Assembly (NCBI GenBank): GCA_043228905.1
Contig: JBHGNT010000017.1
Location: 17,484,001 to 17,548,000 of the forward strand
Direction of reading: 5' to 3'
Origin: Azolla caroliniana
Lineage: Eukaryota; Plantae; Polypodiophyta
Length of the DNA stretch: 64,000 nt
The translations under genes were made by a program, and so were the position numbers. The notes under the pieces are model-generated. The model worked only from the letters and a program-made list of their open reading frames with translations, did not search any database and was not told the origin of the DNA. Below, piece after piece: positions 3,201 through 57,998 of the stretch (position 1 is the first letter of the stretch; each line of letters starts with the position of its first letter).

Positions 3201-6200
3201 TGATTTGTGCAGATGGCCTGCTATCAAGAGCTGCTAGTGATCCAAACTTCCGTTGAGCTAGAGTAAGTCCTATCTCCCTTTCAGTTCTACATAACTCTTC
3301 CTCGTCCTCAGAAGATTCTGAATGCTCCTGTGCTGAATTTTCCAATCTCTTGTGAGCAATTTTGAGTTCCGAAACTCTAGAATTGGATTGCCTTAAATCG
3401 AGTTCATCTTCTGAAACTTCGCCCTCCTCTGGTTCAGTGTTTGCATCATCTTCATTTGTCTCTTTTCTGATTTCCCCTTCTTCTTCATCAAAGCTATCCA
3501 ATTGTGCAGCTGTTTCCATAGCAGTCACAGATTTACTTAGCATAGTTGATGGTCTTTTTTTGCTACTATTGTTTTGTGAATCACTCCTCCTCTCTGAACT
3601 GGTCTCTCGCTTCTTAAGTGACACTTTATCAGGCTGCTCCAGGCGTAGCTTCTCTTCTGCCTCTGCAGTTCCAAGAATTTCAACTGTTCCTTTTTTGGAG
3701 GCATGTTTTGACATAGCATTTACAGCAGCATTCACTTCCCGTGACCCTACAGCAAGCCACGTTGGAGTGTGATGATGATGTAGCATCTCTCCTGGCCACT
3801 CATATTCTTCATCCATCTGATCAAAGATCTCAACCTCCTCATCACTTCTAGCAATCATCCGATTCACTTCATGTAAGCTTGGCACATCATGAACACGTTC
3901 TTGGTACCTTTCTTCATCATGCAACAATGCCTCAAGAGTCATCCTGCGCTCCTCATGTGTCGTCCTCTGGTCAAAACGACCAGCATTAATCACTTCATCA
4001 GCCATTTCAATCTTGTGTTGTTGGATAGTATTGCGTACTAAGCTTTCCACAGAGCCCACGTATCTATCTTTTCCTGCCATATCATCATCTTCTGTGTCAA
4101 TCCCTCCTCCACTCCTGATCTCATCTTGTTTTTCAAAACTGGAGATAGTCTCCACTACAGCTTCCATATAGATGACTCTTACTTCTCTTTTTTGTCCAAT
4201 ACGGTGTGCCCGTGCAACTGCCTGTTCTTCATTCTTTGGATTAGGATCAGGGTCATAGATAACAACTGTGTCAGCAGTTTGGAGATTGAGACCTCGGCCC
4301 GCTGCACGAATACTTAGTAGAAAGATGAAGCAATCAGATCCAGCTCTATTGAACTCAACAATTGCTGCTTCCCGAGCTTCTAGCGTAGTTGTTCCATCAA
4401 TCCTTCTGTAGATTAAACCACGCCATTGAAGGTAGTCCTCCAAAATGTCCAACAACTTGGTCATTGTACTAAAAAGCAAGACCCGATGACCCGTATATTG
4501 GAGCTTAACCAGTATCCTATCCAATATCCAGAGTTTTCCGCACGAACGCACAGAGAATTCATTGGTTCTTTCACTGAAAAATGGATAGTTTAGAAGAGGG
4601 TGATTACAGACTTTGCGTAGCTCCATGCATTTATTTTGAAGTGGAGCATAAGCACGCTTCTGCCTTTTTCCATTCTTTGCTGCAACTCTTAATTCCTCAT
4701 CTCGAGGATCTAGCCGTATTGTTCCTGTTGCTTTAATCCAGTCATAAATTGCAGCTTGTAGGGCAGACATTTTACACCGCAAGACAACAGAAACCTGGCA
4801 TAGCATGAGATCCATATTGTGAGTCATTATCAAGATTCTTAACTGAATCTAACATGAAAACCTCAAAAGAAGTTGGGATCACCTTCGCAGGAAGTGAGCC
4901 TTCTACATCTTCCACACGACGTCGCAGCATGAAAGGCTCTAAAATCTGATGCAGGCGATGGATTACAATGACCTTCTTCTCCGTCTCCAGCCAGTCATCC
5001 TCCTGACTCAAGGAGGTGTTATCTCTCTGGAATGGCATTGAGAACCAATCCTGAAACGACTTTGAATTATCGAAAACCTCAGGTAGAAGCAGGTTGAGCA
5101 GTGACCAGAGCTCACGCAGATCATTCTGGATGGCATAATGAATAAGTTAGTAACTTACATTCCACACACATAAATATATATTGTTCATCAGGACCAGATT
5201 GTGAATACATGCAATTACCCCATCCAGATTCTTTACAGTAAACTTTTACCAATATTACCTGCAGAGGAGTCCCTGTCAACAGTAGACGACGCTGACAGCG
5301 AAAACGATCCAAGTCACGTGAAAGCCGAGACTCTCGGTCCTTCATGCGCTGGGCCTCATCAATGATCAGATACTTCCATTCGATCTTTGACAGCTTGGAT
5401 CTGTCGCGCATGATGAACTCGTAAGTAGTAACCAGCACATTGAACTTTCTTGCACAAACTTCCTGCAGTTTAACATCATGTTAAATGTAGTCTCTAAGTT
5501 TAAACAAAGAATGCAAAAGGACTACAGAACCCAATGCAAAAACAACCTTCATAATTAGAATTTGGTGAATAACTACGACAAATTAAGGTTGAAGAGAAGA
5601 ATTTATCCAGTCCACTCATATTTGGCAACAAAAATAATTCCCAGTGAGTATTGTTTATTGCCCATATCAGAGATGCTCAAATTGCAAGCTCATGTGTTTA
5701 AAGAACTCAAAAGATTATTTAATTGTGCATACAAAGGAACCTGATTTAATGAATGTTTGGGAGACCATGTGACTATACGAAATGCAATCTTTACAATTTT
5801 AAATGAACTAGTCAAAACAAATAAATTATCATCATGCATATTTGAATTCTAAGCTACTGGGCAAGAATCTTGACGAAACACTAACATCCAACGAATAATA
5901 GAAAACCTCAAACATGTGTTGAACATTGCCACAATGTGTGTGACTAATGTTCACATCACAATAAGCTACATAGGTTAAGCTACAAGGGCATCAACTTTAT
6001 AGAAGTATGCCGAGTACCAAGATACAAGTGTGTAATATCCATGTGTTTATTGGATGTGAATTCTTTACATTGCTTAAAACTGCATTTAAAATAATGTAGT
6101 TTTCCAATCCAAACCTGAGCATAAAGTTTTGTCCGCTGCTCTTTGCCTCCAACATAAAATATACATGAGACTGACGGTATCCATCGCAGTAGTTCACTCT

Positions 6201-9200
6201 GCAAAAAATTAGGACATAAGACCAAAATAGACACAATAACATAAGAATCAAATATACATCAATGGTTCATAATGACCTTCCAGTTTACTATTACTGCATT
6301 GGGAACAATAATAAGATGTGGACCATAGTTTGCTTTAAACTCCATCAAGTACGCAATCAAAGCCATAACCTGCAAGAATTCATCACAAAATTATGTTTAG
6401 GGGAGAAACATTTAGGGTTGAAAAATGACCTAATAGTGCCAAGTTGATATAATAATTATGTGTATGGGGCAGTGATCGAACCATAAGATATACCCCTAAT
6501 TTCTTGTTGACGATTGCTTCATAATTGCCAACTCAATAATCATTCATATAATGACGTTCTATTCTTTAGCAATCCATGTTTTCGATATATTTTAAGTTCT
6601 GTTTCCAGGATAAGCATAAATCAACCACATACACTTTCATGATTGGGTAAGACATCATTCAACACATTGACTGCTTCATAAAGCATTGTCAGAACATGAT
6701 AACTGTTTTTTTCACTTTTTGTGGTAATGAAGACATTTAGGGAAGGATTTTAAGTTTTTCTTCTCACTCAATGCCAGCTGTAGATTAAGCCAACAATTTC
6801 AGGTAATATCAAATATAAATTCACCTGTACTGTCTTTCCTAGACCCATCTCGTCTGCTAGGATTCCATTTAGCCGATTATTATACAAAGAAAGCATCCAC
6901 TGTAACCCTACCTACATGTCATAATTGATCGGTTAAATAAACAAACACACCATAATATACTGTACAAGAATTTTAACTTTGCACATGATGAGGTGGTGAT
7001 TATTCACAAAATGAAACATACAAGCTGATAATCCCGCAGGATGCCAGCGCGAAGCATGGATGGCTGTCGTCCAATCCGTTCATTCACAGCATGAGCCAGA
7101 TTATAATATCTGCACCAAAAAAGCAATATAAAGAAAATGCGATCAACTTAAAAAAATATTCACCATGGTTTATACATACTTGCTAACAGAATCAGAGGCT
7201 CTATCAGGTGAGTGTAGGCGTGCGTCAACCTCCTCACGAGCTTGTAATGCAGCTGCATCAATCTCCTCTTCTGAGAGACCCTGAAAAACATGAACAACTA
7301 AATTGTTGGAAGATATGCCATCAAACTTTCACTGGAATAAAGGTACGCAAGTAGAGTATCAAACCTGAGCTTTGGCAGCTAATGTTGCTGCCACCGCTGC
7401 TTCATCTCTCTCCTGTTGATACTTGACTGCTGAAATCTTTCCCCCGAGCTTGTGGAGATAGTCTTCAGTTTGAGAGAGAAATGATGACAAAACTTGAAAG
7501 CGTTCGCCTGCATCGCCAGGCAGCTTAGTCTGCTGTTGTTTCAACATTTCTCGATATGTATCCACATCATTGTTCTTCAAGGCTTCCATCCTCTTGTTTC
7601 GATCCTCATCTCTCCTTTTCGAGAATTCCCGAAGCATCCTTTCATGGTACTTCAAAACCCCCCTGTTCCTTGTAGTTCGAGTATCCCGAATAGCCCAATG
7701 AGCCTCAAATAGACGCTTCCTCCATGAGAAGAGACTTTTAAGTTGCTTCTCCCTTGTGCTTTTCTGTAATTGTATAACCTGTCTTGCTAATTCACCCCGT
7801 TGACGCTCACAAAATCGTACAAATTTGCGGTATACACGTTCCCCCATTGTCATTATGTCTTGTTGCTGTTCTTCAACCTCCTCTCGTACTCTCGACTGCA
7901 GTGTCATCAATCGGAGCTTCTTTTGCTCAATTCTAAGCTTTGTGATGAGTTCTAGGGGAATGCACTTTTTGTCCAATGCAGATCCTAAAAGGGCATCAAT
8001 TAACTTGAGTCTTTCAGACTTTTTCTTATCAATCACCCGGACACCCTCCTTCAACAAGAGTTGTCTTACATCATATCCAAGTGGAATGGGAGGGCCCCAT
8101 GGATTATTGCCCTGAAATAAACTATCAATCTTCCTGCCAATAGGTGGGAAGTCAAACAATGGGCCACGGTATCGCCTCAGAAGTTGCAAAGGTTTTTGTT
8201 GGTTAGGAGCACCTGGAATGGGTTTCTTGGGTAATGCTCCTGATGGTGCCTTACTTGGGGAACAAGGCTGGCTGGCCATATTAATGTTGGCATTGACGAG
8301 GCTAGAATCATCCTTCCTGGTCTGTTCATTAGAACTATTTTGACCAACACTGCCATGCATGGATTCACCAGCAGGCCTGGTTTCTTCTTGCTTCAACGCA
8401 GCACCTCTCTGATCTGGCATATTACTTGCCTGAGGCTGCTGTGATTTTCCATCTAGCATTTCAACTTGCAAGGCAGCTTTTTGAGCCTTCACTTCAACTG
8501 GTTGAGTAATGACGTGAGTGGAAGCATTATTCTGTTTCTCTGTGTCATCCTTCCCTGCAGATGGTGAGGCTTCAACGTTTGAAGGTAATTGCGATCTGTC
8601 AATCCCTAAGGACTTCATAACCTCGGGAGGAATGCTTTCTCCTCGCTGCAAGAGACATTCAAAAAATTCTTTCACATGAACTATAAGAATCACGTAAAAT
8701 GTTCAGTTAACTCCAGATAAAATACCTCTCACTTACCTTAACCCGCCGAAACGCAATAATTTGGGATCTGAGAACTACAAGTTGCTGCCTTGAAAAGCAT
8801 GACTGTGGCTGGATTGGAGGCTGCAGCTGTGGCTGTAGATGAAGTTGAGGTTGTAAATGTGGTTGAGGTTGTGGATGTGGATGTGCCTGTGCTTGTGCTT
8901 GTGATTGCGCTTGTGCTTGTTTTGCTTGTGCTTGTGGATGTGGATGTGGATGTGCTTGTGGATGTGGATGTGGCTGTCCTTGTGCCTGTGATTGTGATTG
9001 TTGTTGGTGTTGTTGCTGTAACTGTGGCTGCAATTGGGTCTGTGGGTGCGATTGCCGATGTGATTGGAGTTGTGGTTGCAACTGTAGCTGTGCCTGTGGC
9101 TGGGGCTGGGGCTGGAGATGTTTCAACTGTTGTTGGAAATGCTGGTGGCCACCTTGTGGATAAAGACCATGAGGATGGTGCTGCTGGATCGGCATTGCTT

Positions 9201-12200
9201 GTGTATGTGCAATATCCTGCTGCTGTTGCAATTGCTGATTGAAATTTGCCTGCTGCATCAATGCATTTGGAGCTTGGGCGGTGGAGGCTGAAGATTGCGC
9301 CTGTTGCTGCCTCATATATTGCATTTCTGCATCATCTCCAGCTCCAACAACTTTATCTGCTGCCCTGGATGGCAATGGTGCTCCTATCAAGCCCTTGTTC
9401 ACAATGCTGGTGGGGGTAGCAGATCCCGTTACATTGGCAGTTGCCCTATTCAAACTTAAAACTCCCCGTTCAATTGAATAGTCAGCTGATTGGTGCATTG
9501 GTTGCTGACGAAGGGCCGGGCTCACAGCATACCCACTGGAAATACTCTGAGGCCCTTTCCCTAACACAATAGCTGGACTGGCATGTCCCTCTGAAGCCAT
9601 ATTTCCATGTTGCTGCGGGATAGGGGAGACAAGATTTCTCATAGGCACATCTTGGCTTTTAGGTGGCATGTGATGAGGATGCTGGGGGGCTGGACTTGTC
9701 TCAGCAGCAGACTTTTGCATTGCCGCAAATTGGGCAAGTAGCTGTGGATGCATGAATTGAGGTTGCCCTTGGAGAAGCGATCCTGAGCTTGGGTCTTGGT
9801 TAGAGTGCATAGGGGGCATTCCTATGTGATTCTGACCGTTTGGTAGCCCTTGCTGCTGACCAGTTGCAGCCGGTGGCCTCATGGTGTTCGGCAAAGAGCC
9901 ATTATATCCATGTTGGATCCGTGGGGGAGCACCGGCTTCATTCTTGGGTTCTTGGGCCTGATCCATCTGCTGTTCTGCTGATAAATACTGACCTGTTATT
10001 TTCCCTTGCCTTGTTGCTTGTGCTTGCCTATGGTTCTGAAGGTTGTTATTGCCTTCCTCTATCGATTGGCCACTTGTTTGTTGACCAGAAATTGAAGCTT
10101 TGCTCTGTTGTGCATTTGATTGTGTCTTCTTCTGAGCTGCAAAAAGTGCTTGTTGTGCATAGGCTTGGTTCACGGCCTGGGGGGTCTCCGCCGCAACCTG
10201 TGTTGGCAACTGTACATCAGTGTAGACCCTTGGTTGGCTACGAAGAGGAGGGCCACTGGATCCGTTGTTAGAATTACTACCCGCTGGGCCTTGAAAGATG
10301 GGTCCTTGATAAGAAGAAAACTGTTCATTGGGCATATCTTTGCGATACTGCTGCAAAAAGAACAAGAGCAACATAGGATTTTTCAAATTAAGATCCCAGC
10401 AACCAAGAAATAGAGACAACTCTAAATTCTTGCCATTTTCAGCAAGCATTCAAAGAACATCAAGTTCAGTGACACTTGGATTCCAGTTCTACTATTATTG
10501 AAACCTATAAAAAGTTCACAAACTGTATTGATGCAGAAACCACGAGACAACAAGCAGATTGAAAATTTTAATGAATTAAATGGACATTTGATTCATGTCC
10601 AACTGTATTGAGGCAAAACTTCTGGAAGAACTACATAATCATGCACAATTCAAGCCCATTGTCTGTAATGTTGCAGAAATCCTAGGGATACAAGCTCTGG
10701 TTTTTCCCATCTTGATCATGCACTTTAAATTGACTATAACTTTGTCATTTATGGAGCAGGAGATATACAGACTCTTTGCAATAGCAATTATTTTGATCAC
10801 ATTGACACAAATGAGGAAAGCAGTGGATACCATGTCAAGGATTAACCCTCACGCTCTGGTATCATGTAAAGAACTATGCAAGCTCTATTGAGGATCATTA
10901 AACAATGCAGCAGAAAAAATAGAAGTTATGTGTGTGCATGTGTGTGTGAAAGAGAAGGGATGAAACAAGGTTGAACAAAATGAATCAACAACAATTACAT
11001 GGAGGAGGATTGGTTTATATAATATATTCTATGGGTACTCTCAGAGAATCATAAATTAGTCTGCCAAAATGGTAGAAAAAATGGGGTATCATACAATATC
11101 CAATTCATTCAATACAAAGGATGTATTCTCTTACACTAGTGACAAGGGTGGACTCTCAAGCACATTCTCTAACAAATGCATTCCCAAAATAAACATGAAT
11201 TTGGTTGATTATAACTTCACTTAGACCCTTTACAACAAAAGAATTTAAATTCCTTCAAAACAAAATACATATAAAAGACAGGTTGAACCAAGTGCACAGA
11301 AGATCCAAACCCTACATTTCTCGAACAAATATATATGCTTGCGAGTTGAATCAACTACGCAGAAAACCCAAAATGTTAATTTCCTTCAAACCAAAAAACA
11401 TATAATACAGAGACTAAACCAAGTGCAAAAGATCCACAGCAATAAATTCTTCAAACCTAAATACATACAAGAAATGCTGAATCAAGTATAAAGAAGTCCC
11501 AAAACTGTAAATTATTTCAAACGAAGTTACATATTACAGTGTCACTAAACCCCTAAATTCTTTCAAATTAGAGGTAGACATCAGAGTGTGTGAGTCAAGC
11601 CCATGGAAGACCCATAATCGTACATTTCTTCCAGCCACACTGTATACCAGAGAAGCTGAATCAAATTCAGAGACTCAAAATTTCAGGACACCTCATATCT
11701 TGAAAATATAGGGAACCCTGGAAAACACATGTTGATCTTGGATTCCCCGTGCCAAAACATGAAACTTGTTCTCCAACTTGACCCATAACCCTAAATTCCT
11801 TCAGAGGCTGAATCAAGTTGCTAGAAGACCCAAAACCCTAAATTTTCTTCACCAAGAATATATACACTAGAGAAGCTGAATTAAGTACCTGAACATGGTA
11901 AGATTGTTGCTGTTGCCCTTGACCTTGCCTTTGCTGCGGCATATGATGAAGATGTTGTTGCAAATGATGTTGCTGTTGTTGCTGTTGCTGTTGCTGTTGC
12001 TGTTGTTGCTGTTGTTGCTGTTGTTGCTGTTGCTGTTGCTGTTGCTGTTGTTGCTGCTGTTGCTGTTGCTGATGATGCTGCTGCTGTAACTGTTGCATCT
12101 TGTGCCATTGTTGCTGCTGCTGTTGAGACCGCTGTGCTGCCGAGAACTGGTGCAAATCAGGGGGGAAATTAGGGTACCCCTTGAGGTTAGGGTTAGGGTT

Positions 12201-12413
12201 ACTGTTCGTGTTTGAGTTAGGGTTAGGGTTAGGGTTTGAGCTAGGGTTAGGGTTAGGGTTAGGGTTAGGGTTAGGGTTAGGGTTAGGGTTAGGGTTTGAG
12301 CTAGGGTTGGAGTTAGTGTTGGGGTTAGATCTTGGGGAGGGAGCAGGGGAGGATGATTCTACTGTTGAGTCTGCCCCTGCTTTTGGCAAGAGACCCTGTT
12401 GACCCTTCTGCAT
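222..12413 (-). CDS. BRM: BRAHMA-type SWI2/SNF2 chromatin-remodelling ATPase, 14 exons, about 2518 aa
   Basis: Exons by GT-AG and frame: 12413-11889, 10350-8737, 8645-7365, 7280-7180, 7109-7022, 6911-6825, 6369-6277, 6198-6115, 5462-5259, 5125-4883, 4794-3199, 3115-2498, 2393-2151, 1001-222 (sum 7557 nt, in frame). Motifs: Q-rich N-terminus, QLQ ([20 protein letters not shown]), Walker [23 protein letters not shown], HELICc ([29 protein letters not shown]), C-terminal bromodomain ([12 protein letters not shown]...LMLDNAARF). The bromodomain distinguishes BRM from SYD. Confidence 0.95.
8810..9190 (-). repeat. Coding low-complexity Q/P/H/A hexamer repeats (QP, HP, QA) in BRM exon 2
   Basis: Runs of TGTGGA/TGTGCT/GGCTGG on the + strand encode QPQPQ, HPHP and QAQAQ just before the QLQ domain. 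Confidence 0.85.
11240..11888. repeat. Degenerate ~65-bp tandem repeat at the 5' end of BRM intron 1
   Basis: The motif (GC)TGAATCAAG..AGAAGACCCAAAACCCTAAATTTCTTC recurs near 11284, 11347, 11414, 11478, 11590, 11656, 11808 and 11876. Confidence 0.6.
11946..12125 (-). repeat. Polyglutamine (CAG/CAA)n tract in BRM exon 1
   Basis: (TGC/TGT)n on the + strand; about 35 consecutive Q in ORF 11838-12638. Confidence 0.95.
12187..12306 (+). repeat. (TTAGGG)n array encoding an (Asn-Pro)n tract in BRM exon 1
   Basis: 13 perfect TTAGGG units in blocks of 2, 3 and 8 (longest 12247-12294), plus CTAGGG variants. Confidence 0.95.
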
Positions 12414-12539
12414 GCTCAAATCCAAAAGACAAATTGCAAAAGCAGAGAAATCTCGCCCATTCACAGATCTACAGAGAGAGAGAAGGAAGAAGGGGGGGGG
12501 GGGGAGAAGAGGGAAGAAAAACACCGCAGGAAAATACAC

Positions 12540-12713
12540 ACACAACTCTTTCTCTCTCTCTCTCTTTCTTTTTCTCTTTTCTTTTTTCTCTCTTACAGAG
12601 ACCCCCACCTTCCCTCGCTCTTTCTCGCAGAGACCCACATCTCTTTCTCTCTATCTATCTGCCTCTGCCTCTGCCTTTCTCTGTTTCCTCTGTTCTCTCT
12701 GTCTCTCTCTCTG

Positions 12714-17169: not shown

Positions 17170-19128
17170 CTATGGAGAGGAAGGCTTGAAGCCCAACATA
17201 GTAGATTCCTTACAACAATCTGCACTCTTATCCATATATGTGAGTCCAAGTGATGGTGGTTCCACTTGGACCTGAATTGCCTTCCCTTGCTTCAGAAGAA
17301 CTAACGCATCTAGCACATCCAACATTGTTGGTCGATCTTTTGGAGATTCCTTGGCACAAGCCAATGCCAAAGCCAATACGCTGTATATGGTCTCGTGGTC
17401 TGCGAGTCCATCCTGGATTTCCTTTGTGAGATCGGGATCAATCACATCCATCCAATTCTTGTGTACCGCGGATTGCACCCATTTAGGTAGGCTTTTTCCG
17501 TCCATGAAAATGTTGCTAGTCGGACGCCGCTTTGTAATCATCTCTAAAACCACAACGCCATAGCTATACACATCCACCTTGTCCGTCAATCTCTCGCCAT
17601 ATGCATATTCTGCCAATTAAACAAAGCAGATCAAGTCATATAAAGCCATCAAAATATAGAGCAAATCATATAAACCACAAGTACCAGGATACAAAGCACA
17701 TGCACCATACCCACGCGAATTCGTGGACATCATTGCTTCTCATGTCCGATCCTTACAAGGAACTCCCAGAACACCTAAGCTACTGGATGGCCTTGTACGA
17801 TGTCGGGGGTTGAACCCATGACCTTATGGTCTCTACCAGAAAACCTTACAAACCAGGATGTAGGTGATCGTCGAGATGAGACTGCTCGACACATGTGGGA
17901 TTAGACTGAAAGTAGATGAGGATGGACCCCTATACATTGCTATATGTTATTTCCCTCCCAAGGGACAATCACCAGAGAGTATCTATCGGATTTTATATGA
18001 GAATGTATCAGTACCTTATATGAGTCAAGATTCCAGTAACTCATGAGAATCAGTAAATTATGGGAATTGCAACTCATTAGGGATCACATGTTCATCTCCA
18101 TCTATCACCTCCCTGGATAAATACCATGAAGGGAATTATGCAACATCTTTGTATGATATAGCAGATCATCCACCTCTACCACATTCATTGATGCCCTGCA
18201 CCCTCCCCACTTCCACTTTCTTCAGTGCAGGTATGGTGAAGGAGTCATATTGACAGATTGCCCACAAGAAGGTTTAGTTGCATACATTTTATACATGCCG
18301 GAGACATGATTGCATATCTAGTGGTCTTTATGTTCAATAGAGCACAGTGTGGGGGCTTTCCTAAAACTTGGGAGTTCTACCAGGATTGTGCATTTACTCA
18401 AGTCAGGAGACCATGATTTGTTTGCTCATTACACCATTCGAGTGAAACAGGGATGTTCACGCGCTCTGATACTCTTTGGGCTGTATGGGGATGATGTTAT
18501 ATGCACATGATATTGTGTTGATAGTAGACTGTGCAGAGGACTTACAAAGATACTTGGATGCTCTACATTCTTTTGCACAAGGTAATGCACTCTCGGTGAA
18601 GCTTGATAAAACCAAGTTCATGGTGTTTAACTCTACATCTCAGTGAATAAGGAGTTCTGCAATAGATGTCATGTCTGGACAGATGAGGGTGAATTTTGTA
18701 GGCTAATACCTACCTTGGTGTAATGTTCACTGCACCTATCTTCTCCATGAGAAGAAATGCACAGGCTCAGCTTACTGGGATGTATACAGCACTAGGAGGA
18801 CTACAGGACTGAGTCTGGACCGGCATTACACTTCCCGAGGAATGTTTCATGAGTAGGGATTTAGGGAGAGAGATCTCGTCTCCATGAAATTCAGAACAAT
18901 TTGAGCTGAAGATAGATATGTATGCTTTTGCCCAAATCATCCTGAAGATCAGTGGGCTAAAGACTGATTTCTTGTGTGCACATTGTATCCTTCACATTAC
19001 TGGTATCCTCTCATAGAGATGTTTCTACACCTATTCTGCTTGAATCCTTTTTTCTAACTCTCTGATTACTATTTCTTTTTACATTAGTTCATATCAGATA
19101 CTTAAGTCACGCATCATTTGATGGTCTT

Positions 19129-19196
<68 letters not shown>

Positions 19197-22100
19197 CACA
19201 CACCACACACAAGCGCGCGCGCATACATGTATGTAAGAACAAACCCAAAGATAGCGATAGCGGATTGGATACCTGGTGCCATATATCCAATTGATCCTTG
19301 CATACCCGACATAGAAACTGCCCGATCGATTTCAGACTTTATCATCCGTGCAATACCAAAGTCACTGATATGTGCCTCGAAATCCTCATCAAGAAGAATA
19401 TTGCTCGGCTTCAGGTCACAATGGAGAACCCGGCCAAATCCTGTTTCCTTATGCAGATAAACCAATCCTTGTGCCACACCATGTGCAATATTAAATCTTT
19501 GTTCCCAACGTAACTTGGATTCATTTGTGTGTAGATGCAGATCTAGGTTCCCATTTGGTATGTAATCCAGAATCAAGCATTTCGAATTTGCAGATGATAA
19601 GGTACCAAATATTTTCACGAGATTTCTATGCCGAATTTGACCCAGTGTATTTGACTCTGATTGAAAACACTTTTCCACCTCTGGACTGTTGTGGAGATTC
19701 AGTTTCTTGACAGCAATCACCATTCCACTACTTAAAACACCTTTGTAGACTGTGCTCGAGCCACCTCTACCAATAATGTTAGCATCATTATATTTGTTGG
19801 TTGCATGAGAAATCTCTCGGGCGGAGAGTTTGATCCTTCGGTCGAATGTTACAACTTTAGTTTTCCTCCACTTTTTAGCAGCAATAAAATAAGTGAGTAT
19901 AGCAATTATTGCACAGATGAAAACCAGAACTACACAAATGATTATGATTTTGGTTTTGGATATGCCATGCTCATGACCTATGGATTCAGATGCTTTGATT
20001 GGACAACTTGAGGTAAGTGGAGGCCCACAGAGATCTGCATTTCCGAGATATGAATCACTCAAAAAGCTGCCAAACTGATTTCCTGTAAAAGGAAACAAAT
20101 TTTACACATGACAGAAGAAAACCATATGCATCAAAAATATCTAAATAAAATGTAAAAACATGAAGATTTAGGGATAGCAATAGTCTCAAGTCTCAAGTCA
20201 TAGTCTAATGTTACATGGATTCTAAAAAGTCATCTTGATATTCTTTCAGTCTATTTAGCGAAAACCTTGGCTGCACAAAATCACTTTCCACAACCCAAGC
20301 GTTGAAACTATATACCAAGCCAATGCTAACATTCACTTCCCACAACCCAAGAGTCGAAAATAATATAACGAGTCAAACTAAGATATTGATAAATAAAAGA
20401 AAATCTGTTATAGGAGTAGAACACATACCTGTTGGGATTGCCCCTGACAACTGATTGTTCGATAGATTCAGGAATGTTAGTGATGTCAAAGCTCTTAGTT
20501 GGGTAGGTATTGTACCACTAAGCTGATTGTTCGAAAGATCCAACGATTCAAGTGTCAGAACATTTCCGAGACTATTTGGAATTGGCCCTGTTAGTAGATT
20601 TCTTGAAAGATTTAGGCTGAACAATCCGGTCAATGAACCAATCTCGTTAGGTATGGTGCCAGACAATTTATTCCCGGACAAATCCAAAGATATGACAACA
20701 TTCAAGAGATACATGTAGTATAATTGTGTACCCTTTGCATCAATGGTCACTTTAACACTCCACAAAGTTTGGTCTGAATTGGTTGTACTTTCATTCCTCT
20801 TAAAACCCTCTAAGTTGTATATGTCAGCTGGAATCGTACCCGAGAATTGGTTGTTGGACACGGCCAAAATCTGTAACTGATTCAAATTCCAGAGCCATAA
20901 GGGAAGAGCACCCTCTAGGTTGTTATAACCAACACTTAAAACCCTTAGATTCTTTAGTTGGCCCCAACTGTCAGGGAGAGGGCCACTGAACTGATTACGT
21001 GAAAAATCCAGTACCACCAAACTGCTCTCATTCACAAAGGAGGCAGGAAGGCTTCCATTAAAGCTGTTGCCTGCAAGTGAAAATGAATTTAGCTGTCTCA
21101 GTGCGGTAAACTGATTTGGAACCTCGCCACTCAAAGAGTTCTCGGAAAGCTTGAGCCACTGGAATTGTATACAATTGGCCAACTCAACCGGTACACCACC
21201 CGAGAAATTGTTCATGGACAAGTCTAGATAAACTAGCTTTGTGAGCTTCCCTAATGACAAAGGGATGGGGCCTTCAAGCCTGTTGGGACTAGCCTCAAAG
21301 TATACGAGGTTCACAAGATTTCCTAACTCGGATGGTAGGAATCCTGTGAAGTTGTTGTTGCCGAGGTACAGCTGAGTTAAAGTAGTCATATTTCCTAGCT
21401 CGGCCGGAATGTTCCCACTCAATCCGTTGGTAAAGATAATGAAGTTACTTAAGTTCTGAATTTTACTTATCTCAACAGGCAATGCACCCATGATGTTATT
21501 GGCAGAGAGGTCCAGTTCTTCCAAGCTTCTCATGTCTCCGATCTCCCGAGGCAACTCGCCAGAAAGCTGGTTGTTCTGAGCATATAGGTAATGGAGGTTA
21601 GTGAGGTTTCCAATCTCCTTGGGGAGGCTTCCATTGAACTGGTTGTAGGATATGGAAAACCTCTGTAGGTTTTTGAGTTTGCCAATTGTTGATGGTATTG
21701 TTCCAGATAGAGCATTCGAGGAGAGATCGAGCTCTTTCAAGTTCCCGAGGTTCCCTAATTCAGCAGGGATGGATCCTTGCAAGTTAATATTCCAGAACCA
21801 CAAATACTGGATGTTTGTAAGGTTTCCAAACTCAGGAGGGAGACCCCCTTGGAATTTGTTCCCCAACAGAGACATTATCTCCAGGTTATGAAGGCGCCCG
21901 AGTTCTGCTGGGATTGCCCCGTCGAGCCTGTTAAGAATGAGGTAAAGTTGAAGGAGCTTACTGAGCTTACCGAGTTCGGGAGGTATGCTTCCAATCAAGT
22001 CATTTTGACCCAAATACATGTACTTTAGATTGGTAAGGTTTCCGAGCTCAGGGGGTATGATACCCGTCAAATTCGGCAGGTTGTGGAGTTGAAGCATTTC

Positions 22101-22718
22101 AAGGGCAGTGAGACTGCCGAGGGAAGGCGGGATTGACCCGACCACATCGCTATTCTTGCTTAAATCAAGCCAAATGAGGGATGTACAATTGCCAACTGAA
22201 GAAGGTATGGATCCAGATAGCAAATTCTCTTTGAAATCTAGATGGGTTAGAGATGACAATTGACCTAACTGTTCAGGTATGGACCCTGTGAGGCCATTGA
22301 TGGAGAGGTTAAGATATGTTAGGAAGGTGAGGTTGGAGAGGTAAGGGGATATGGTTCCTGTAAGGTTGCTTTGCCTGAGGTCTAGGGAGGTCACTCTACT
22401 GGTTCCATTCTGATTTGTGCTGTTATTGTTGTTGCAAGTGACCCCTGCCCAACTGCTGTTGCAAGGGAATGAATGAGGTGAAGAGTTCCATGAGCTTAAC
22501 ACACGAAGTGGATCACCATTGATGCTGGCTTTGAAGCTGAGTAGAGCTTCTTTGTCTATGGTTTCTTCCTCATCTAGGGACAATGTGCACAGGAATGGGC
22601 ATGAAACAATCAGGAATAGAAAGAACAGGGGAGGTGTGGAGGAGGTACATGGGATTACTACTGCACAAATTCTTCTTCTTAGTAATCCCATCATCATCAT
22701 CATCATCATAATCACCAT
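17170..22718 (-). CDS. LRR receptor-like kinase copy 1 (non-RD kinase, island-domain ectodomain), 3 exons, about 1179 aa
   Basis: Exons 22718-20429, 20082-19273, 17609-17170 (GT-AG, 3540 nt). Signal peptide, LRRNT (CNSSWAGVTC), many plant LxxLxLxxNxLxGxIP repeats, LRRCT (YLGNADLCGPPL), TM (IIIICVVLVFICAIIAIL), kinase motifs GRGGSSTVYKG, AVKK, HCDLKPSN, DFG, APE. The exact start Met is uncertain because of the poly-ATG run. Confidence 0.92.
17860..18950 (+). mobile_element. Decayed LINE (EN/RT fragment) inside RLK1 intron 2
   Basis: Broken-frame motifs LYIAICYFPP, RVKQGC..LFGLY (18440), LYAHDIVL (YADD-like, 18497), LSVKLDKTKFMVFN, YLGVMF. Confidence 0.7.
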
Positions 22719-23949
22719 GAAGATGTCATTCTTCTTCTTCTTCTTAGTAATCCCATCATCATCATCATAATAATAATCACCATGAAGATGTCATTCTTCT
22801 TCTTCTTCTTAGTAATCCCATCATCATCATCATAATAATAATCACCATGAAGATGTCCTTCTTCTTCTTCTTATGCTTAGAAGTTAGTACATTTCCTCTG
22901 TCTCTATGGCTGTCTCTCTCTCTCTCTCTCTCTGTTTTTTTGTGTCTTTTTGTGTGTGAACACTGAATAGTCCAAAGTAAATGCATTTCCTGTGTCTCTG
23001 TGTCTTTTTGTGTCTTTCTGTGTGTGAATAGTCCAAAGTAAATACATAATGGTGGCTACCAAACCATACCCATTGATTGCGTTTGAGTGGGATTGTCAAC
23101 CCAAATCTAAGTGTCAACACGTCGACTTGTCAACGAAGAGAGCGATAATGTGGTGTAAATGTCTTGGGTCACAAGTATTTCCTCGAGATTGTGAAGCCGT
23201 TTGCTTGGTACACCGATTATGTATGTAGTGCACAATGTCGGAATAATGACGTGTAACAAAGACGCTAATCTTTGGATTGGAGCCCAAGACCTTGCAATTT
23301 GGCACCACCTAATAGCTTGGAGATTATGATAAGATCGAATGTAATGGAACACAAATGGTTGTTTTATCATCCATGAGGAGACGTATGGTAAGAGATCAAT
23401 ATATCATCTTGTATGTGACTCCTTCCTATGAAATGGGGGTTACTTCTTTGTAATAAAATTCTCTATGCGAAACTAATGCATGCACATATGTGCTAACCCT
23501 CCATGGTGGGAATTTGAGTACGTCACTTGAGTCATCATAGTTCTCGCAAATTACCTTATATGATGAGCATGCAAGAAGTTAGTGATATTCATTCTCCACT
23601 AGGTTTTGATTGCATACCTTGCATATCCTCATAATAGGTCGATGATCCAATGATGCTACTTCAATACCTTACTTGTGCTACTATCTCTAACAACCAAGGC
23701 TCATGGGGATAGTAAGATGCGGTTGGATACTTTCTTGCTTTTTTACTAGAGCTTATCTAATCATTTTACCTTGTATTGGGGCCAACGTTGGAAAATGTCA
23801 TAGTTATGGTAGAGAGAGAGAGAGAGAGAGAGAGGAGGAGGAGGAGGAGGAGGAGGAGGAAAAGGGACATATCATGGTGGGCACAAGATCATGTTTGTGC
23901 TCATAAGCGTCGTGGTGGGACATCAATATTGAATTTATATTAGCATTTG

Positions 23950-34059: not shown

Positions 34060-35189
34060 CTATGGAGAGGAAGTTCCAGAGCCCAATGAAGCAGGTTCAG
34101 CAGTAGAATGTGAGCTGGTATCAACAATTGCAGGTCCAGGTGATGGTTCCACTTCAACCTGAATTACCTTTCCTTGCTTCAGAAGAACTAATGCATCTAG
34201 CACATCCAGCATTGTTGACCGATCTTTCGGAGCTTCCTTGGTACAAGCCAATGCCAAAGCCAATACACTGTATATGCACTCCTGGGCTGCTAACCCATCT
34301 TGGATTTCCTTCTTGAGGTCTAGATCAATCACATCCATCCAATTCCCGTTTACTGCAGATTGCACCCATTTGGGTAGGCTTTTTCCGTTCGTGAAAATGT
34401 TGCTGGTCGGACGCAACTTTGTAATCATCTCTAATACCACCACCCCATAGCTATACACATCCACCTTGTCTGTCAATCTCTCACCATATGCATATTCTGC
34501 CAATTGCAAAACAGGGCAAATCATATTTAAAATTAAATCCTCCCTCTTTGATACTTCACCACTAATGAACAGATGATGGAGAAGGCTGACCCATGACACT
34601 TTTGGAAAGGCTTTCTCCAGCTTTGAAGCATTGGGAGTCAAACTTACAATACCACACAGGTTGCAGGGATAGTCTCACATATCACAGACTTCTTCCATAA
34701 GTCTTTACCTCCACTGATAAAGTGCCATGGAGTCATCAAAGAGCAAGCAGAAGAATGAGGACATCAACTGAGACCATGAGAACTAGGAACAAATCACATG
34801 AGCCATACCCACACAAAATTGTCTTCATGTCCTATCTGTCCAAGGACACCCAGAACACTCAGCTTACTAGATGGCATTGCAGGATGCCAACATTGCAGGA
34901 TCCTTGCTTCTAACTCTCCAATTACCATTTCTTTTTACATTAGTTCATATCAACTACTTCATGCATCATTTGATGGTTTCTCTCTCTTTCTCTCTCTTTA
35001 GCTTAAGTTCTATTTTATTTTATTTTTATTTTTGATGAATGGGTAAATACCCCATTTTTGTTGTAAACCAATTGTCTCATGCGCCAATTTTGGTCTTAGA
35101 AAACGTTAATATATCTTTAGAAAACGTTAATATATCTTTCTTTCTTTCTTTCTCTCTCTCTCTCACACACACACACCACACACATACAT

Positions 35190-35230
<41 letters not shown>

Positions 35231-38200
35231 TACATGTACCTAAGAAAAAACCCGAAGATAACAAAGAGATAGCGGACTGGATACCTGGTGCCATATATCC
35301 AATTGATCCTTGCATACCCGACATGGAAACCGCCCGATCAATTTCGGAGTTTATCATCCTGGCAATACCAAAGTCACTGATATGTGCCTCGAAATCCTCA
35401 TCAAGAAGAATATTGCTTGGCTTCAGGTCACAATGGAGAACCCGGCCAAATCCTGTTTCCTTATGCAGATAAACCAATCCTTGTGCCACACCATGTGCAA
35501 TATTAAATCTTTGTTCCCAACGTAACTTGGATTCATTTGTGTGTAGATGCAGATCTAGGTTCCCATTTGGTATGTAATCCAGTATCAAGCATTTCGAATT
35601 TGCAGATGATAAGGTACCAAATATTTTCACGAGATTTCTATGCCGAATTTGACCCAATGTATTTGACTCTGATAGAAAACACTTTTCCACCTCTGGACTG
35701 TTGTGGAGATTCAGTTTCTTGACAGCAATCACCATTCCACTACTTAAAACACCTTTGTAGACTGTGCTCGAACCACCTCTACCAATAATGTTAGCATCAT
35801 TATATTTGTTTGTTGCACGAGAAATCTCTTGGGCGGAGAGTTTGATCCTTCGGTCGAATGTTACAACTTTAGTTTTCCTCCACTTTTTAGTAGCAATTAA
35901 AAAACCGAGTATAGAAATTATTGCACAGATGAAAACCAGAACTACACAAATGATTATGATTTTGGTTTTGACTATGCCATGCTCATGACCTATGGATTCA
36001 GATGCTTTGATTGGACAACTTGAAGTAAGTGGACGCCCACAGAGATCTGCATTTCCGAGATATGAACCACTCAAAAAGCTGCCAAACTGATTTCCTGTAA
36101 AAGGAAACAAATTTTACACATGACATAAAAAACCATAAGCATAAAAAATATCTAAATAAAATGTAAAAACATGAAGATTTAATGATAGCAATAGTCTCAA
36201 GGCCCAAGTCATAGTCAAATGTTACATGGATTGTAAAAGTCATCTTGATATTCTTGTTGTCTATTTACTGAAAACTCTGGTTTCACAAAATCATTTTCCA
36301 CAACCCAAGCGTTGAAACCATATACCAAACCAATGCTAACATTCACTTTCCACAAGCTACGAGTTGAAAATGATATAACGAGTCCAACTAAGATATTGAT
36401 AAATGAAAGAGAATCTGTTATAGAAGTAGAACACATACCTGTTGGGATTGCCCCTGACAACTGATTGTTCGATAGATTCAGGAATGTTAGTGATGTCAAA
36501 GCTCTTAGTTGGGTAGGTATTGTACCACTAAGCTGATTGTTCGAAAGATCCAACGATTCAAGTGGCAGAACCTTTCCGAGACTATTTGGAATTGGCCCTG
36601 TTAGTAGATTTCTTGAAAGATTTAGGCTGAACAATCCGGTCAATGAACCAATCTCGTCAGGTATGGTGCCAGACAGTTTATTCCCCGATAAATCCAAAGA
36701 TATGACAGCATTCAAGAGATACATGTAGTATAATTGTGTACCCTTTGCATCAATGCTCACTTTAACAGTCCATAAAGTTTGGTCTAAACTGGTTGTACTT
36801 TCATTCTTGAAACCCTCTAAGTGGTATATGTCAGCTGGAATTGTACCTGAGAATTGGTTGTTTGAGAGGACCAAAATCTGTAACTGATTCAAATTCCAGA
36901 CCCATAAGGGAAGAACACCCTCTAGGTTGTTATACCCGACATTTAAAAGCCTTAGATTCTTTAGTTGGCCCCAACTGTCAGGGAGAGGGCCACTGAACTG
37001 ATTACGTGAAAAATCCAGTACCAGCAAACTGCTCTCATTCACAAAGGAGGCAGGCAGGCTTCCATTAAAGCTGTTGCCTGCAAGTGAAAATAAATTTAGC
37101 TGTTTCAGTGTGGTAAACTGATTCGGAACCTCACCACTCAAAGAGTTCTCGGAAAGCTTCAGCCGCTGGAATTGTATACAATTGGCCAACTCAACTGGTA
37201 AACCACCCGAGAATTTGTTCATGGACAAGTCTAGATAAACTAGACTTGTGAGATTCCCTAATGACAGAGGGATGGGGCCTTCAAGCCTGTTGGGACTAGC
37301 CTCAAAGTGCCCAAGGTTCACAAGATTTCCTAATTCGGATGGTAGGAATCCTGTGAAATTGTTGTTGCCGAGGGACAGCTGAATTAAAGTAGTCATATTT
37401 CCTAGCTCGGTCAGAATGTTCCCACTCAATCCATTGCTAAAGATAATGAAGATACTTAACTTCTGCATTTTATTTATCTCAACAGGCAATGCACCCATGA
37501 TCTTATTGTCAGAGAGGTCCAGTTCTTCTAAGCTTCTCATGTCTCCGATCTCCCGAGGGAACTCACCAGAAAATTGGTTCTTTCGAGCATATAGGTAATG
37601 GAGGTTAGTGAGGTTTCCAATCTCCTTGGGGAGACTTCCATAGAACTGGTTTTCCGATATGGACAAACTCTCTAGGTTTTTGAGATTGCCAATTGTTGAT
37701 GGTAGTGGTCCAGATAGAGCATTCGAAGAGAGATCAAGCTCTTTCAAGTTCCTGAGGTTCAACTCTTCCGAGCTTTGCATGTCTCCGATCTCCTGAGGCA
37801 ACTCTCCAGAAAGCTGGTTGTTCTGAGCATATAGGTAACGGAGGTTAGTGAGGTTTCCAATCTCCTTGGGGAGGCTTCCATTGAACTGGTTGTAGGATAT
37901 GGACAACCTCTCTAGGTTTTTGAGCTTGCCAATTGTTGATGGTAATGGTCCAGATAGAGCATTCGAGGAGAGATCAAGCTCTTTTAAGTTCCCGAGGTTC
38001 CCTAATTCAGCAGGGATGGTTCCTTGCAATTTAATATTCCAGAACCGCAAATACTGGATGTTTGTAAGGTTTCCAAACTCAGGAGGGATGCCCCCTTGGA
38101 ACTTGTTCTGCAACAGAGACATTATCTCCAGGTTATGAAGGTGGCCGAGTTCTGCTGGGATAACCCCGCCGAGGTTGTTGATCATGAGGTAAAGTTCAAG

Positions 38201-38974
38201 AAGCTTAGTGAGCTTACCGAGCTCAGGAGGTATGCTTCCAGTCAAGTTATTTTGACCCAAATACATGTACTTTAGATTGGTAAGGTTTCCAAGCTCCGGG
38301 GGTATGGTACCCCTCAAATTCGGCAGGTTGTGGAGTTGAAGCATTTCAAGGGCAGTGAGACTGCCGAGGGAAGGCGGGATTGAACCGACCACATCGATAT
38401 TCTTGCTTAAATCAAGCCAGACAAGGGATGTACAATTGCCAATTGAAGCAGGTATGGGCCCAGATAGCAAATTCTCTTGGAAATCTAGATGGGTTAGTGA
38501 TGAAAATTGACCTAACTGGTCAGGTATGGACCCTGTGAGGCCATTGATGGAGAGGTCAAGGTATGTTAGGACGGTGAGGTTGGAGAGGTAAGGGGATATG
38601 GTTCCTGTAAGGTTTCTTTGCCTGAGGTCTAGGGAGGTCACTCTTCTTGTTCCATTGTGGTTTGTGGTGTTCTTGTTGCAAGTGACCCCTGCCCAGCTGC
38701 TGTTGCAAGGGAAGGAATGAGGTGAAGAGCTCCATGAGCTTAACACACGAAGTGGGTCACCATTGATGCTAGCTTTGAAGCTCAGTAGAGCTTCTTTTTC
38801 CATGGTTTCTTCCTCTGCTATGGACAATGTGTACAGGATTGGGCATGAAACAATCAGGAATAGAAAGAACAGGGGAGGTGTGGAGGAGGTACAGGGGATT
38901 ACTACTGCACAAATTCTTCTTCTTCTTCTTCTTAGTAATCTTATCATCATCATCATCATCATCATAATGAACAT
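34060..38974 (-). CDS. LRR receptor-like kinase copy 2 (non-RD kinase, island-domain ectodomain, internal LRR duplication), 3 exons, about 1260 aa
   Basis: Exons 38974-36439, 36094-35285, 34496-34060 (3783 nt, in frame). Same motifs and intron positions as copy 1, with a near-identical kinase exon 2. Confidence 0.92.
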
Positions 38975-40233
38975 GAAGATGTCCTTCTTCTTCTTATAAT
39001 TAGAAGTTAGTACATTTGCTACATTTGCTCTGTTTCTATGGCTCTCTCTATCTCTGTTTTTTGTGTCTTTATGTGTGTGAATATGTACATAGTCCAAAGT
39101 AAATACATTTCCTCTGTCTCTCTGTTCTTTTTGGGTGTCTTTTTGTGTGTGAATAGTCCAAAGTAAATACATAATGGTCATGGTGGGTACCTAGTGCCAA
39201 ACCATACCCATTGACTGACACTTAGATTCGTCAATGAAGAGTATAAATGTCTTGGGTCACAAATATGTCCTGGAGATTTGTGAAGTGTCAAATCGCCATC
39301 TTGTCAACGAAGAGAACGATATAATGAGTGTAAATGTCTTGGGTCACAAATATCTAAGTGTCAAATCACCAACTTGTCAACGAAGAGAGCGATAATGAGT
39401 GCAAATGTCTTGGGTCACAAATATGTGATGGAGATTTGTGAAGCCATTTGCTTGATACACTGATGATGTTGTGCAGAGTGTTAGACAAATGATGTCTAAC
39501 AAAGATGTTAATGTCCGGATTTGAGCTCAAGACCTTGCATTTTGACACAACCTAATAGCTTGCAATGTATGATAAGGTATAATGTACTAGAACACAAATT
39601 GTTGTTTTATCATCCAGAGGAGAGCTATATGAAGAGATCAATATATCATTTTGTATGTGACTCCTTCCATAAGAAATGGGGTTACTTCTTTGTAATAAGA
39701 TTCTCTACGCGAAAATAATGCATGCACATATATGATAAGATGGAATGTAATGGAACACAAATAGTTGTTTTATCATCTATGAGGAGGCCAGTTTTGACCT
39801 GGATGAGATCAATTGTATATCATCCTTCCTACGAAATGGGGTTACTTCTTTGTAATAAGATTCTCTATGCAAAACTAATGCATGCACATATCTACTAACC
39901 CTTCGTGGTGGGGATATGAGTATGTCACTTGAGTTGTCTTCCCCATCTAACAAGTCATCGTACTTCTCGCAAATCACCTTACATGATGAGCATGCAAGAA
40001 GTTATGGATATTCATTCTCCACGACGTTTTGATTGTAGACCTTGCATATCCTTATATTTGGTTGATGATCCAATGATGCTACTTCAATACCTTACTTGTG
40101 GTACTATCTCTAACAACCAATTTTCATGGGGAGAGTAAGATGTGGTTGGATACTTCGTAGCTTTTTTACTAGAGGTGATCCAATCGTTTTGCCTTGTATT
40201 GGTGCCAATATTGGGAAATATCATAGTCATGGT

Positions 40234-44113: not shown

Positions 44114-44267
44114 TGTCGTGAAGATTTTCGGCAACAGTGGGAAAATCGCATGAAACGAGGGAAATCAAGAACTTGGTGCAATGTGCACACGTATAAAAGG
44201 AGTGATGGTTAGACGTGTATGTTAACACATTAATGTGTACGTGTGATGTGTGTTTGGGTGTTCATTA

Positions 44268-49648: not shown

Positions 49649-49957
49649 CATTATACAAATATATAAAATAAGCTTAACGTATACAATGAGATGCAAGTAA
49701 GGTTTGAACCTTACACCTCCAAGATAGGAAACAATTGACATACCATTAGACTACATTGTTTCCTTAAAAGTTAATTTCTTCATTGTACTTTTCACATGTA
49801 AGTGCTCGTTCATAAGAGCTTGGATAAGGTACATGGTCATCATGAATCACATGTGATACATGGTCGCCAAATGGCAATCATGCATTGCATACATCTCATG
49901 CATTGCATGCATGTACTACACCCTCACATGCACATATGCATGGGGGCATGTATATAA

Positions 49958-57203: not shown

Positions 57204-57708
57204 CTGGCTCCTACTCTACGCACTATGGGTAGACATGACGACGCATAGTTCAGTGACCGGGTACATGCCGACGGAGCTGATGTACGGGCAGAAAATCTGC
57301 TTCGACTCGCGTTCCGGAGTCCGCGTCGACTCGCATTTATGCGGAGTTGCAGAATCTATGCTCCAACTTGCGTTGTGCGTAGTTGCGAAGTCTGTGCTTC
57401 GGCTTGCGTCTTTCTTCGTGGCTTTGTGCGGTAGATCGGCTCTTCGCAGCTTCGTTGCACGGTTGCGGAATCCACGTTGTCACGTAAATACGCGCGTGCA
57501 TGTCGAAGGGGCGGGACCACGGGGGTCTCGGACCAGGAAGAGAAGGAGTGGGGAGCCGACTCCGGACCCATACCGAAGGCTACCGAACACGAGAGAGAGA
57601 GCTTGCGCGCCACCGACTCTTATGTACAGAAAACATAAAGGGGTGGAAACACCCGACACCGTGAGAGACACCAGTATGCACAAACAAATATGAATAAATA
57701 TATTACAA

Positions 57709-57991: not shown

Positions 57992-57998
57992 AAGGGGG

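What the first reader, a model, noticed from the sequence alone, without database searches (positions are those of the whole stretch)
19273..20830. Receptor joining an RLP-type island-domain ectodomain to a non-RD (FLS2/EFR-like) kinase
Seen: both RLKs have a ~40-aa non-LRR island (NLEGFKRNESTTNSDQTLWSVKVTIDAKGTQLYYMYLL) ending in Kx5Y (KGTQLYY, K at 20733; copy 2 at 36743), then exactly four LRRs and GNQFGSF..SYLGNADLCGPPL. Established: island + 4 LRR with Kx5Y/QFxTF typifies kinase-less LRR-RLPs and the RD-kinase LRR-Xb group (BRI1/PSKR), whereas HCDLKPSN non-RD kinases typify LRR-XII pattern-recognition receptors. The TM lacks the GxxxG motif RLPs use to bind SOBIR1. A phase-1 intron sits right after the last LRR. 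Inference: a shuffled, possibly SOBIR1-independent immune receptor class.
Basis: partly seen in the sequence, partly recalled or inferred. Interest (0 to 1): 0.72.

Follow-up and report, generated by a model that had tools for sequence, protein, structure and literature searches.

The report
Island-domain LRR-XII receptors of non-flowering plants
Two intact fern genes encode surface receptors that carry the co-receptor-docking outer part of kinase-less plant immune receptors on an FLS2/EFR-type kinase, a combination also found in other ferns, conifers, Ginkgo and a clubmoss, and likely able to signal immunity without the adaptor kinase SOBIR1.

Summary
Confirmed and wider than reported. Two tandem, intact three-exon genes (1179 and 1260 aa) carry LRRs, a 38-aa island with Kx5Y, four LRRs with QFxS, a TM and a non-RD kinase. 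Contigs of probable RNA runs from close relatives join both introns exactly. The kinase groups with LRR-XII (100/99; grouping with Xb rejected, p=0.001). The last four LRRs group with RLPs (89/85; grouping with XII p=0.027, 0.051 with two more rows). The architecture is an old lineage: it occurs in Ceratopteris, Adiantum, Ginkgo, Pinus, Cryptomeria and Diphasiastrum, and no angiosperm member appeared among the listed hits. The island lysine (16 of 16) and the penultimate-LRR glutamate (15 of 16), which RLPs use to recruit BAK1, are kept. A predicted model matches RXEG1 best. Ngou 2024 counted 36 such XII receptors but does not discuss them in the sections read; its table gives Ceratopteris no SOBIR1 and no island RLPs. 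Likely a SERK-dependent, SOBIR1-independent pattern receptor; ligand and function are untested.

The parts
20429..22718 (-). Copy 1 exon 1: N-terminal hydrophobic stretch, N-cap, 22 LRRs, island, last four LRRs; start codon uncertain
20703..20816 (-). Copy 1 island domain (38 aa) with Wx8KG and Kx5Y; K codon 20735-20733
20429..20702 (-). Copy 1 last four LRRs (C3); conserved Glu of the penultimate LRR at about 20549
20083..20428 (-). Copy 1 intron 1 (346 nt, GT-AG, phase 1) inside PTG|NQF
   Evidence: joints
19273..20082 (-). Copy 1 exon 2: QFGS loop, C-cap, uncharged outer juxtamembrane, TM (about 19948-19877, no GxxxG), kinase I-VIII with VIa Tyr (19459) and HCDLKPSN (from 19423)
17610..19272 (-). 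Copy 1 intron 2 (1663 nt, GT-AG, phase 1) at GYMAP|E
   Evidence: joints
17170..17609 (-).
36439..38974 (-). Copy 2 exon 1, with an 80-residue internal LRR duplication at about 37559-37798
36713..36823 (-). Copy 2 island; K codon 36745-36743 (island ends computed from the K position)
35285..36094 (-). Copy 2 exon 2: QFGS loop, cap, TM, non-RD kinase I-VIII
34060..34496 (-). Copy 2 exon 3: kinase C-lobe

Best explanation
These genes encode plasma-membrane receptor kinases that join an RLP-type island plus last four LRRs to an intact LRR-XII non-RD kinase, and they likely act as pattern-recognition receptors that are predicted to recruit a SERK co-receptor on ligand binding and would signal without SOBIR1. 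Shown: the architecture, the splicing (in close relatives), the two different tree placements and the conserved docking residues. Inferred steps: (1) a microbial protein or peptide binds the concave LRR face and the island; (2) the island C-terminus forms a hairpin whose Lys, with the Glu of the penultimate LRR and the QxxS loop, docks the SERK N-cap as in RXEG1-BAK1; (3) the receptor's own non-RD kinase activates the SERK kinase as EFR does, taking the place of SOBIR1. [quoted passage not shown] It was probably lost in angiosperms.
For: Kinase tree, 63 rows: 18 island-bearing rows and 20 XII rows form one side at 100/99; holding them with Xb is rejected, p-AU 0.001. Best PDB match of exon 2 is the FLS2 kinase, E 6.6e-40 against 6.8e-37 for BRI1. 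C3 tree, 77 rows: 16 members, 23 RLPs and one BRI1-type ectodomain form one side at 89/85; holding members with XII gives p-AU 0.027. The LRRs at positions 1, 2, 3 and 5 from the C-end are closer to RLP than to XII in 16 of 16 members. Island Lys 16 of 16 (followed at +6 by Y in 5, F in 11), penultimate Glu 15 of 16, cap Gln 14 of 16; Gln in 21 of 23 RLPs and 0 of 18 XII. These residues recruit BAK1 in RLPs (PMC12686451 passages; PMC10834447 sections 8-10). The AF2 model has strands 160-164 and 167-171 around K165; its best structural match is RXEG1-XEG1-BAK1, Z 31.6, 262 of 266 residues, rmsd 1.7, against about 230 aligned for island-less receptors. Between the two copies dN/dS is 0.95 at exposed LRR positions, 0.36 at other LRR positions and 0.15 in the kinase (Fisher p 3e-4). 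Tandem copies occur here and in Ceratopteris, Adiantum nelumboides and Ginkgo. Ceratopteris is listed with 0 SOBIR1, 1 SERK and 0 island+4LRR RLPs.
Against: No ligand, mutant or interaction data exist. The C3 tree has only 108 columns: support is unstarred (89/85, then 86/81) and p-AU rises to 0.051 with two gymnosperm RLPs added. The kinase tree does not recover all island-bearing rows as one clade (not rejected, p 0.138); the lycophyte row and the divergent Adiantum rows are unplaced. The hairpin has pLDDT near 50 and came from an alignment with 15 RLP rows of 32. The model without RLP rows gave a low-confidence helix there. Foldseek ranked PSKR1 first and RXEG1 37th by E-value. Five of 16 members have a TM GxxxG. 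The window copies have Ser where RLPs usually have Phe at the end of the penultimate LRR (my mapping of the published position). The ungapped cap comparison was even, 8 of 16. A zero SOBIR1 count can be an annotation miss, and Azolla, Ginkgo and Selaginella do have SOBIR1. dN/dS near 1 can be relaxation.
Confidence: 0.6

Rival explanations
1. Relic rather than fusion: these receptors descend from a kinase-bearing ancestor of the immune LRR-RLPs, and RLPs arose by losing a XII kinase and adopting SOBIR1. The signalling mechanism would be the same as in the best explanation; the history is reversed.
For: The island lysine motif is in over 75% of RLP islands, under 5% of Xb islands and 16 of 16 members here, so these are closer kinase-bearing relatives of RLP islands than Xb is. 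Several fern members have GxxxG or GxxxGxxxG in the TM. A Cryptomeria RLP is the nearest RLP, 93/85.
Against: The trees have no root for this question. No bryophyte member appeared among the listed hits, whereas island RLPs are reported across land plants. The outer juxtamembrane is not acidic.
Confidence: 0.2
2. A receptor for an endogenous peptide or small molecule with a developmental role, working like PSKR1 or BRI1 but with a XII kinase.
For: PSKR1 structures rank next to RXEG1 (Z 29.6-30.1) and first in Foldseek. The core fern orthologs are fairly conserved, 57-71% identical.
Against: Non-RD XII kinase, RLP-type lysine motif, tandem duplication, and fast-changing exposed LRR residues.
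Confidence: 0.15
3. The receptors still associate with SOBIR1 through the TM and use their own kinase as an additional output.
For: GxxxG in 5 of 16 members. An RLP23 chimera with a BRI1 cytosolic kinase keeps binding SOBIR1 if the RLP TM is retained (PMC10834447 section 10).
Against: No GxxxG in either window copy or in the five gymnosperm members tested; outer juxtamembrane acidic in only 2 of 16; Ceratopteris is listed without SOBIR1.
Confidence: 0.12
4. Convergence: an ordinary XII receptor gained an insertion before its last four LRRs and converged on RLP-like residues under selection for SERK binding.
For: The C3 signal is short and borderline (p 0.027-0.051), and selected sites can pull trees together. 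LRRs further from the island show no RLP affinity.
Against: Lys, the aromatic at +6, Tyr at -9 in several members, the pre-island LRR, Glu and Gln all match RLPs in register.
Confidence: 0.08

Closest known systems
LRR-RLK-XII receptors FLS2, EFR, XA21
   Same: Non-RD HCD kinase in the same clade, VIa Tyr, about 26 LRRs, tandem duplication; an intron at GYxAP|E (recalled as shared with FLS2 and EFR).
   Different: They lack an island. EFR has GVFRN where these have a QxxS loop, and FLS2 contacts BAK1 through more N-terminal LRRs.
Immune LRR-RLPs (RXEG1, RLP23, RLP42, Cf, EIX2)
   Same: Island before the last four LRRs, Kx5Y/Yx8KG lysine, penultimate Glu, QxxT/S; best structural match is RXEG1.
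   Different: RLPs have no kinase, an acidic outer juxtamembrane and a GxxxG TM, and they need SOBIR1.
LRR-RLK-Xb (BRI1, PSKR1, PSY1R, EMS1)
   Same: Island+4LRR on a kinase, QxxT/S. Ngou 2024 suggests Xb may have arisen by joining an island RLP to an Xb kinase, which would be a parallel event.
   Different: RD kinase of another clade (p 0.001, tested with EMS1-type rows only); under 5% carry the island lysine motifs; developmental output.
The 36 LRR-RLK-XII with ID+4LRR in Ngou et al. 2024 Fig. 4d source data
   Same: Same architecture class, in a survey that included Ceratopteris, Ginkgo and pines.
   Different: Only a count (36 of 19,626 XII). The sections read do not discuss them, and no gene list was found to confirm they are this lineage.

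Membership tests
LRR-RLK-XII | Kinase domain falls in the XII clade (subclasses are defined by kinase domain, PMC13006823) | tested here: met
   100/99 with FLS2-like and EFR/Xa21-like rows. Labels came from source names and motifs, not from a curated classifier; one row named FLS2 (P0463) proved MIK2-like.
LRR-RLK-XII | Non-RD catalytic loop and VIa Tyr | tested here: met
   HCD or HLD, and YLH, in both copies and in 14 of 14 relatives printed.
LRR-RLK-XII | Uninterrupted LRR ectodomain (typical, not defining) | tested here: not met
   38-aa island; only 36 of 19,626 XII have ID+4LRR.
LRR-RLK-XII | Ligand-induced SERK complex and immune output | not testable with these tools
   Needs a ligand and bench assays.
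LRR-RLP (ID+4LRR clade) | No cytoplasmic kinase | tested here: not met
   Spliced in frame to a full kinase.
LRR-RLP (ID+4LRR clade) | Island before the last four LRRs with Kx5Y or Yx8KG lysine | tested here: met
   Lys in 16 of 16; Y at +6 in 5 and F in 11.
LRR-RLP (ID+4LRR clade) | Penultimate-LRR Glu and QxxT/S loop | tested here: met
   Glu 15 of 16, Gln 14 of 16; both present in the window copies.
LRR-RLP (ID+4LRR clade) | C3 region groups with RLPs | tested here: inconclusive
   One side at 89/85 and 86/81; the alternative has p-AU 0.027 and 0.051.
LRR-RLP (ID+4LRR clade) | Acidic outer juxtamembrane and TM GxxxG | tested here: not met
   Window copies: net charge 0 and +1, no GxxxG. Lineage: acidic 2 of 16, GxxxG 5 of 16.
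LRR-RLK-Xb | RD kinase of the Xb clade | tested here: not met
   HCD; grouping with four EMS1-type rows rejected, p-AU 0.001.
LRR-RLK-Xb | Island+4LRR ectodomain | tested here: met

The most novel reading that the evidence does not exclude
An ancient, undescribed class of vascular-plant immune receptor, apparently lost from flowering plants, is the kinase-bearing sister or ancestor of the immune RLPs. In ferns such as Ceratopteris, which are listed without SOBIR1 and without island RLPs, it replaces the whole RLP-SOBIR1 system with single-chain receptors, and it offers a natural template for SOBIR1-independent engineered receptors.
Probability: 0.3. Interest if true: 0.85.

Novelty: new variant of a known kind. 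Interest (0 to 1): 0.66.

Why it matters
Current reviews treat the island+4LRR module as shared by RLPs and Xb kinases only, and Ngou 2024 leaves open whether the ancestor was an RLK or an RLP. A third lineage that keeps the RLP-specific lysine on an immune-type kinase bears directly on that question. It also suggests how non-flowering plants may sense RLP-type ligands, and it makes the idea testable in Ceratopteris, a tractable fern (recalled) with few XII genes (4 listed). It is a natural version of an RLP ectodomain wired to its own immune kinase.

Tried and rejected
No whole genome is held, so copy number in this organism is unknown. No listed run is on record as RNA; the runs laid are guessed RNA and come from relatives or paralogs, so they show splicing of the family, not expression of these exact copies. 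The profile-free representative search was crowded by multi-kinase records and added few members. The island+C3 homolog search was dominated by long LRR proteins. The ESM Atlas gave only generic LRR kinases. Foldseek on the full-length model did not discriminate. No complex was folded: no SERK was identified among the stored proteins (four carried the HRDVKAAN motif, and were not examined further) and no ligand is known. Intron 1 as the fusion seam was rejected because the Q loop lies on exon 2. An annotation artefact joining an RLP to a neighbouring kinase was rejected (single-ORF relatives on 4-5 kb contigs). Rows dropped from trees: 16 rows without a usable kinase segment; P0070, P0072, P0220, P0009, P0424, P0448, P0449, P0478, P0060 and P0066 from the first C3 tree (the first two added); P0463 left out of the XII group in the AU tests. 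Unit 4 and the cap were poorly registered. Literature: nine searches returned no paper describing this lineage. The library lacks most subscription papers, and the main supplementary PDF of PMC10834447 was too large to read. The gene id 28G063700 was not found in its readable supplements or in PMC9223546. Earlier scan notes held nothing relevant.

Full report
Observation. The window holds two tandem minus-strand LRR receptor kinase genes, about 92-93% identical over the coding region. Each has three exons and two GT-AG phase-1 introns, and each translates without a stop: 1179 aa (22718-20429, 20082-19273, 17609-17170) and 1260 aa (38974-36439, 36094-35285, 34496-34060). Copy 1 has 22 LRRs, a 38-residue island, four LRRs, the loop PTG|NQFGSF, a cap, a TM without GxxxG and a kinase with an intact Gly loop, VAVK, VIa Tyr, HCDLKPSN, DFG and APE. 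The organism is inferred to be a fern, because both copies nest among fern proteins at 99/99.

Splicing. No run is on record as RNA. Contigs of guessed-RNA runs, counted from 85% identity, cover the exons. They join 20082 to 20429, exactly or within a few bases, in 3 of 4 runs, and 17609 to 19273 in 2 of 4. For copy 2, counted from 90% identity, they skip intron 1 in 3 of 4 runs and intron 2 in 3 of 4. These contigs come from relatives or paralogs, so the family is spliced as modelled; expression of these exact copies is not shown.

Distribution. Three homolog searches and one representative search gave 179 LRR-cap-kinase units with at least five LRRs. Read by eye, 23 have a true island near the end of the LRRs. 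They are the two window copies; Ceratopteris (KP509_28G063700, and a merged record with three tandem units on chr19); Adiantum capillus-veneris; A. nelumboides (one close and three divergent); Ginkgo (three); Pinus taeda (two); Cryptomeria (two models of one cluster); the lycophyte Diphasiastrum (one); five unnamed proteins; and one oat protein of separate origin. No other named angiosperm or bryophyte protein among these units had it. Only the best 120-150 hits per search were listed, so absence is not proven. Intron read-through or skipping at the same G|xQF point in unnamed and Ginkgo records suggests that intron 1 is shared across the lineage (inference).

Two histories in one protein. In a 63-row kinase tree the island-bearing rows lie with FLS2-like, EFR/Xa21-like and island-less fern, lycophyte and conifer XII kinases at 100/99. 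Joining them to Xb is rejected (p-AU 0.001), and their own monophyly is neither recovered nor rejected (p 0.138). In a 77-row tree of the last four LRRs and cap they lie with 23 RLPs and a BRI1-type ectodomain at 89/85, and joining them to XII gives p-AU 0.027. With two Cryptomeria RLPs added, support is 86/81 and p is 0.051, so this half is probable, not firm. With the island and the pre-island LRR included, all 16 members form one side against 25 RLPs at 80/47, nearest to a Cryptomeria RLP. The RLP-like signal covers the LRR before the island and the LRRs after it, and fades further N-terminal. The RLP-type Gln loop lies after intron 1, so that intron is not the seam.

Mechanistic residues. 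In RLPs the island Lys sits in the turn of a C-terminal hairpin and, with the Glu of the penultimate LRR, binds the BAK1 N-cap; under 4-5% of Xb islands carry the motif (PMC12686451, passages; PMC10834447, sections 8-11 and parts of the supplements). Here the Lys is in 16 of 16 members, the Glu in 15 of 16 and the Gln in 14 of 16; island-less XII rows have the Gln in 0 of 18 and the Glu in 6 of 18. An AF2 model of the window's last 266 ectodomain residues (mean pLDDT 89, island near 50) puts the Lys between two strands. It aligns best to RXEG1 in its BAK1-bound form, Z 31.6 over 262 residues, ahead of ERL1 and PSKR1 at 30.1. Foldseek ranks PSKR1 first. The alignment held 15 RLP rows of 32, and a model without them gave a low-confidence helix, so the hairpin is only suggestive. 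For the kinase, EFR activates BAK1 allosterically and needs its VIa Tyr (PMC11259431, passages); that Tyr is kept in all 14 relatives printed.

SOBIR1. The window copies lack both RLP features for SOBIR1 binding: GxxxG and an acidic outer juxtamembrane (net charge 0 and +1). An RLP23 chimera with a BRI1 TM and kinase loses SOBIR1 and still recruits BAK1, which shows that this wiring can work. The published table lists Ceratopteris with 0 SOBIR1, 1 SERK, 4 XII and 0 island+4LRR RLPs, whereas Azolla, Selaginella and Ginkgo have SOBIR1. That is circumstantial and could be an annotation gap.

Immune role. The evidence is indirect: a non-RD XII kinase, tandem arrays, and dN/dS of 0.95 at exposed LRR residues against 0.36 elsewhere in the LRRs and 0.15 in the kinase (27 of 274 against 37 of 936 nonsynonymous sites, p 3e-4). 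The island itself gave 0.57 on only 7 changes.

Novelty. By kinase these are members of LRR-XII. They work like RLPs in co-receptor docking (inferred), but they are neither RLPs nor Xb. Ngou 2024 states that 94.7% of island+4LRR kinases are Xb, and its source data count 36 XII cases without comment in the sections read. Nine paper searches found no description of the lineage. PMC8462819, PMC7318236, PMC13006823, PMC10739070 and PMC9223546 were seen only as term passages, and other papers only as listings. Verdict: a real, old and apparently undescribed variant of a known receptor kind, built from known parts, that bears on the origin of RLPs and is directly testable. Interest 0.66.

Noticed in passing
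P0224 (Avena sativa, UniRef A0ACD5ZZX6): An island that looks BRI1-like (motif recalled) plus four LRRs on an HCD kinase that nests among grass XII kinases at 100/94. Either a separate natural BRI1-XII chimera or an annotation fusion; single record.
   Followed up: partly
window 37559-37798: Copy 2 has an 80-residue imperfect internal duplication of LRRs that leaves one short, broken repeat. Contigs also show 216-240 nt skips and returns in this area, suggesting LRR number varies among paralogs.
   Followed up: partly
window 22690-22860 and 38940-38980: The start region lies in ATG/GAT and AAG microsatellites (poly-Met); copy 1 has three tandem copies of a unit of about 60 nt. Loose ends of related contigs suggest a shorter N-terminus in paralogs.
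   Followed up: no
window 2429-12650: Minus-strand multi-exon gene with SNF2-type helicase motifs and long Gln-rich tracts, BRAHMA-like by recall; no family search was run.
   Followed up: no
window 42700-62625: Nested, broken LTR retrotransposon pieces, copia-like (45364-48892, 50677-51492, 57977-62625) and gypsy-like (51193-54202), named from recalled motifs.
   Followed up: no
P0057, P0381, P0387, P0462 (Adiantum nelumboides): A divergent, duplicated sub-lineage with an HLD catalytic loop, the same as in the lycophyte member; P0057 has a duplicated island end.
   Followed up: partly
P0463, P0486, P0072: Misleading database names: a 'FLS2' that is MIK2-like, a 'BAK1-like' that is an island XII receptor, and a 'GSO2 kinase' that is a kinase-less RLP.
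   Followed up: yes
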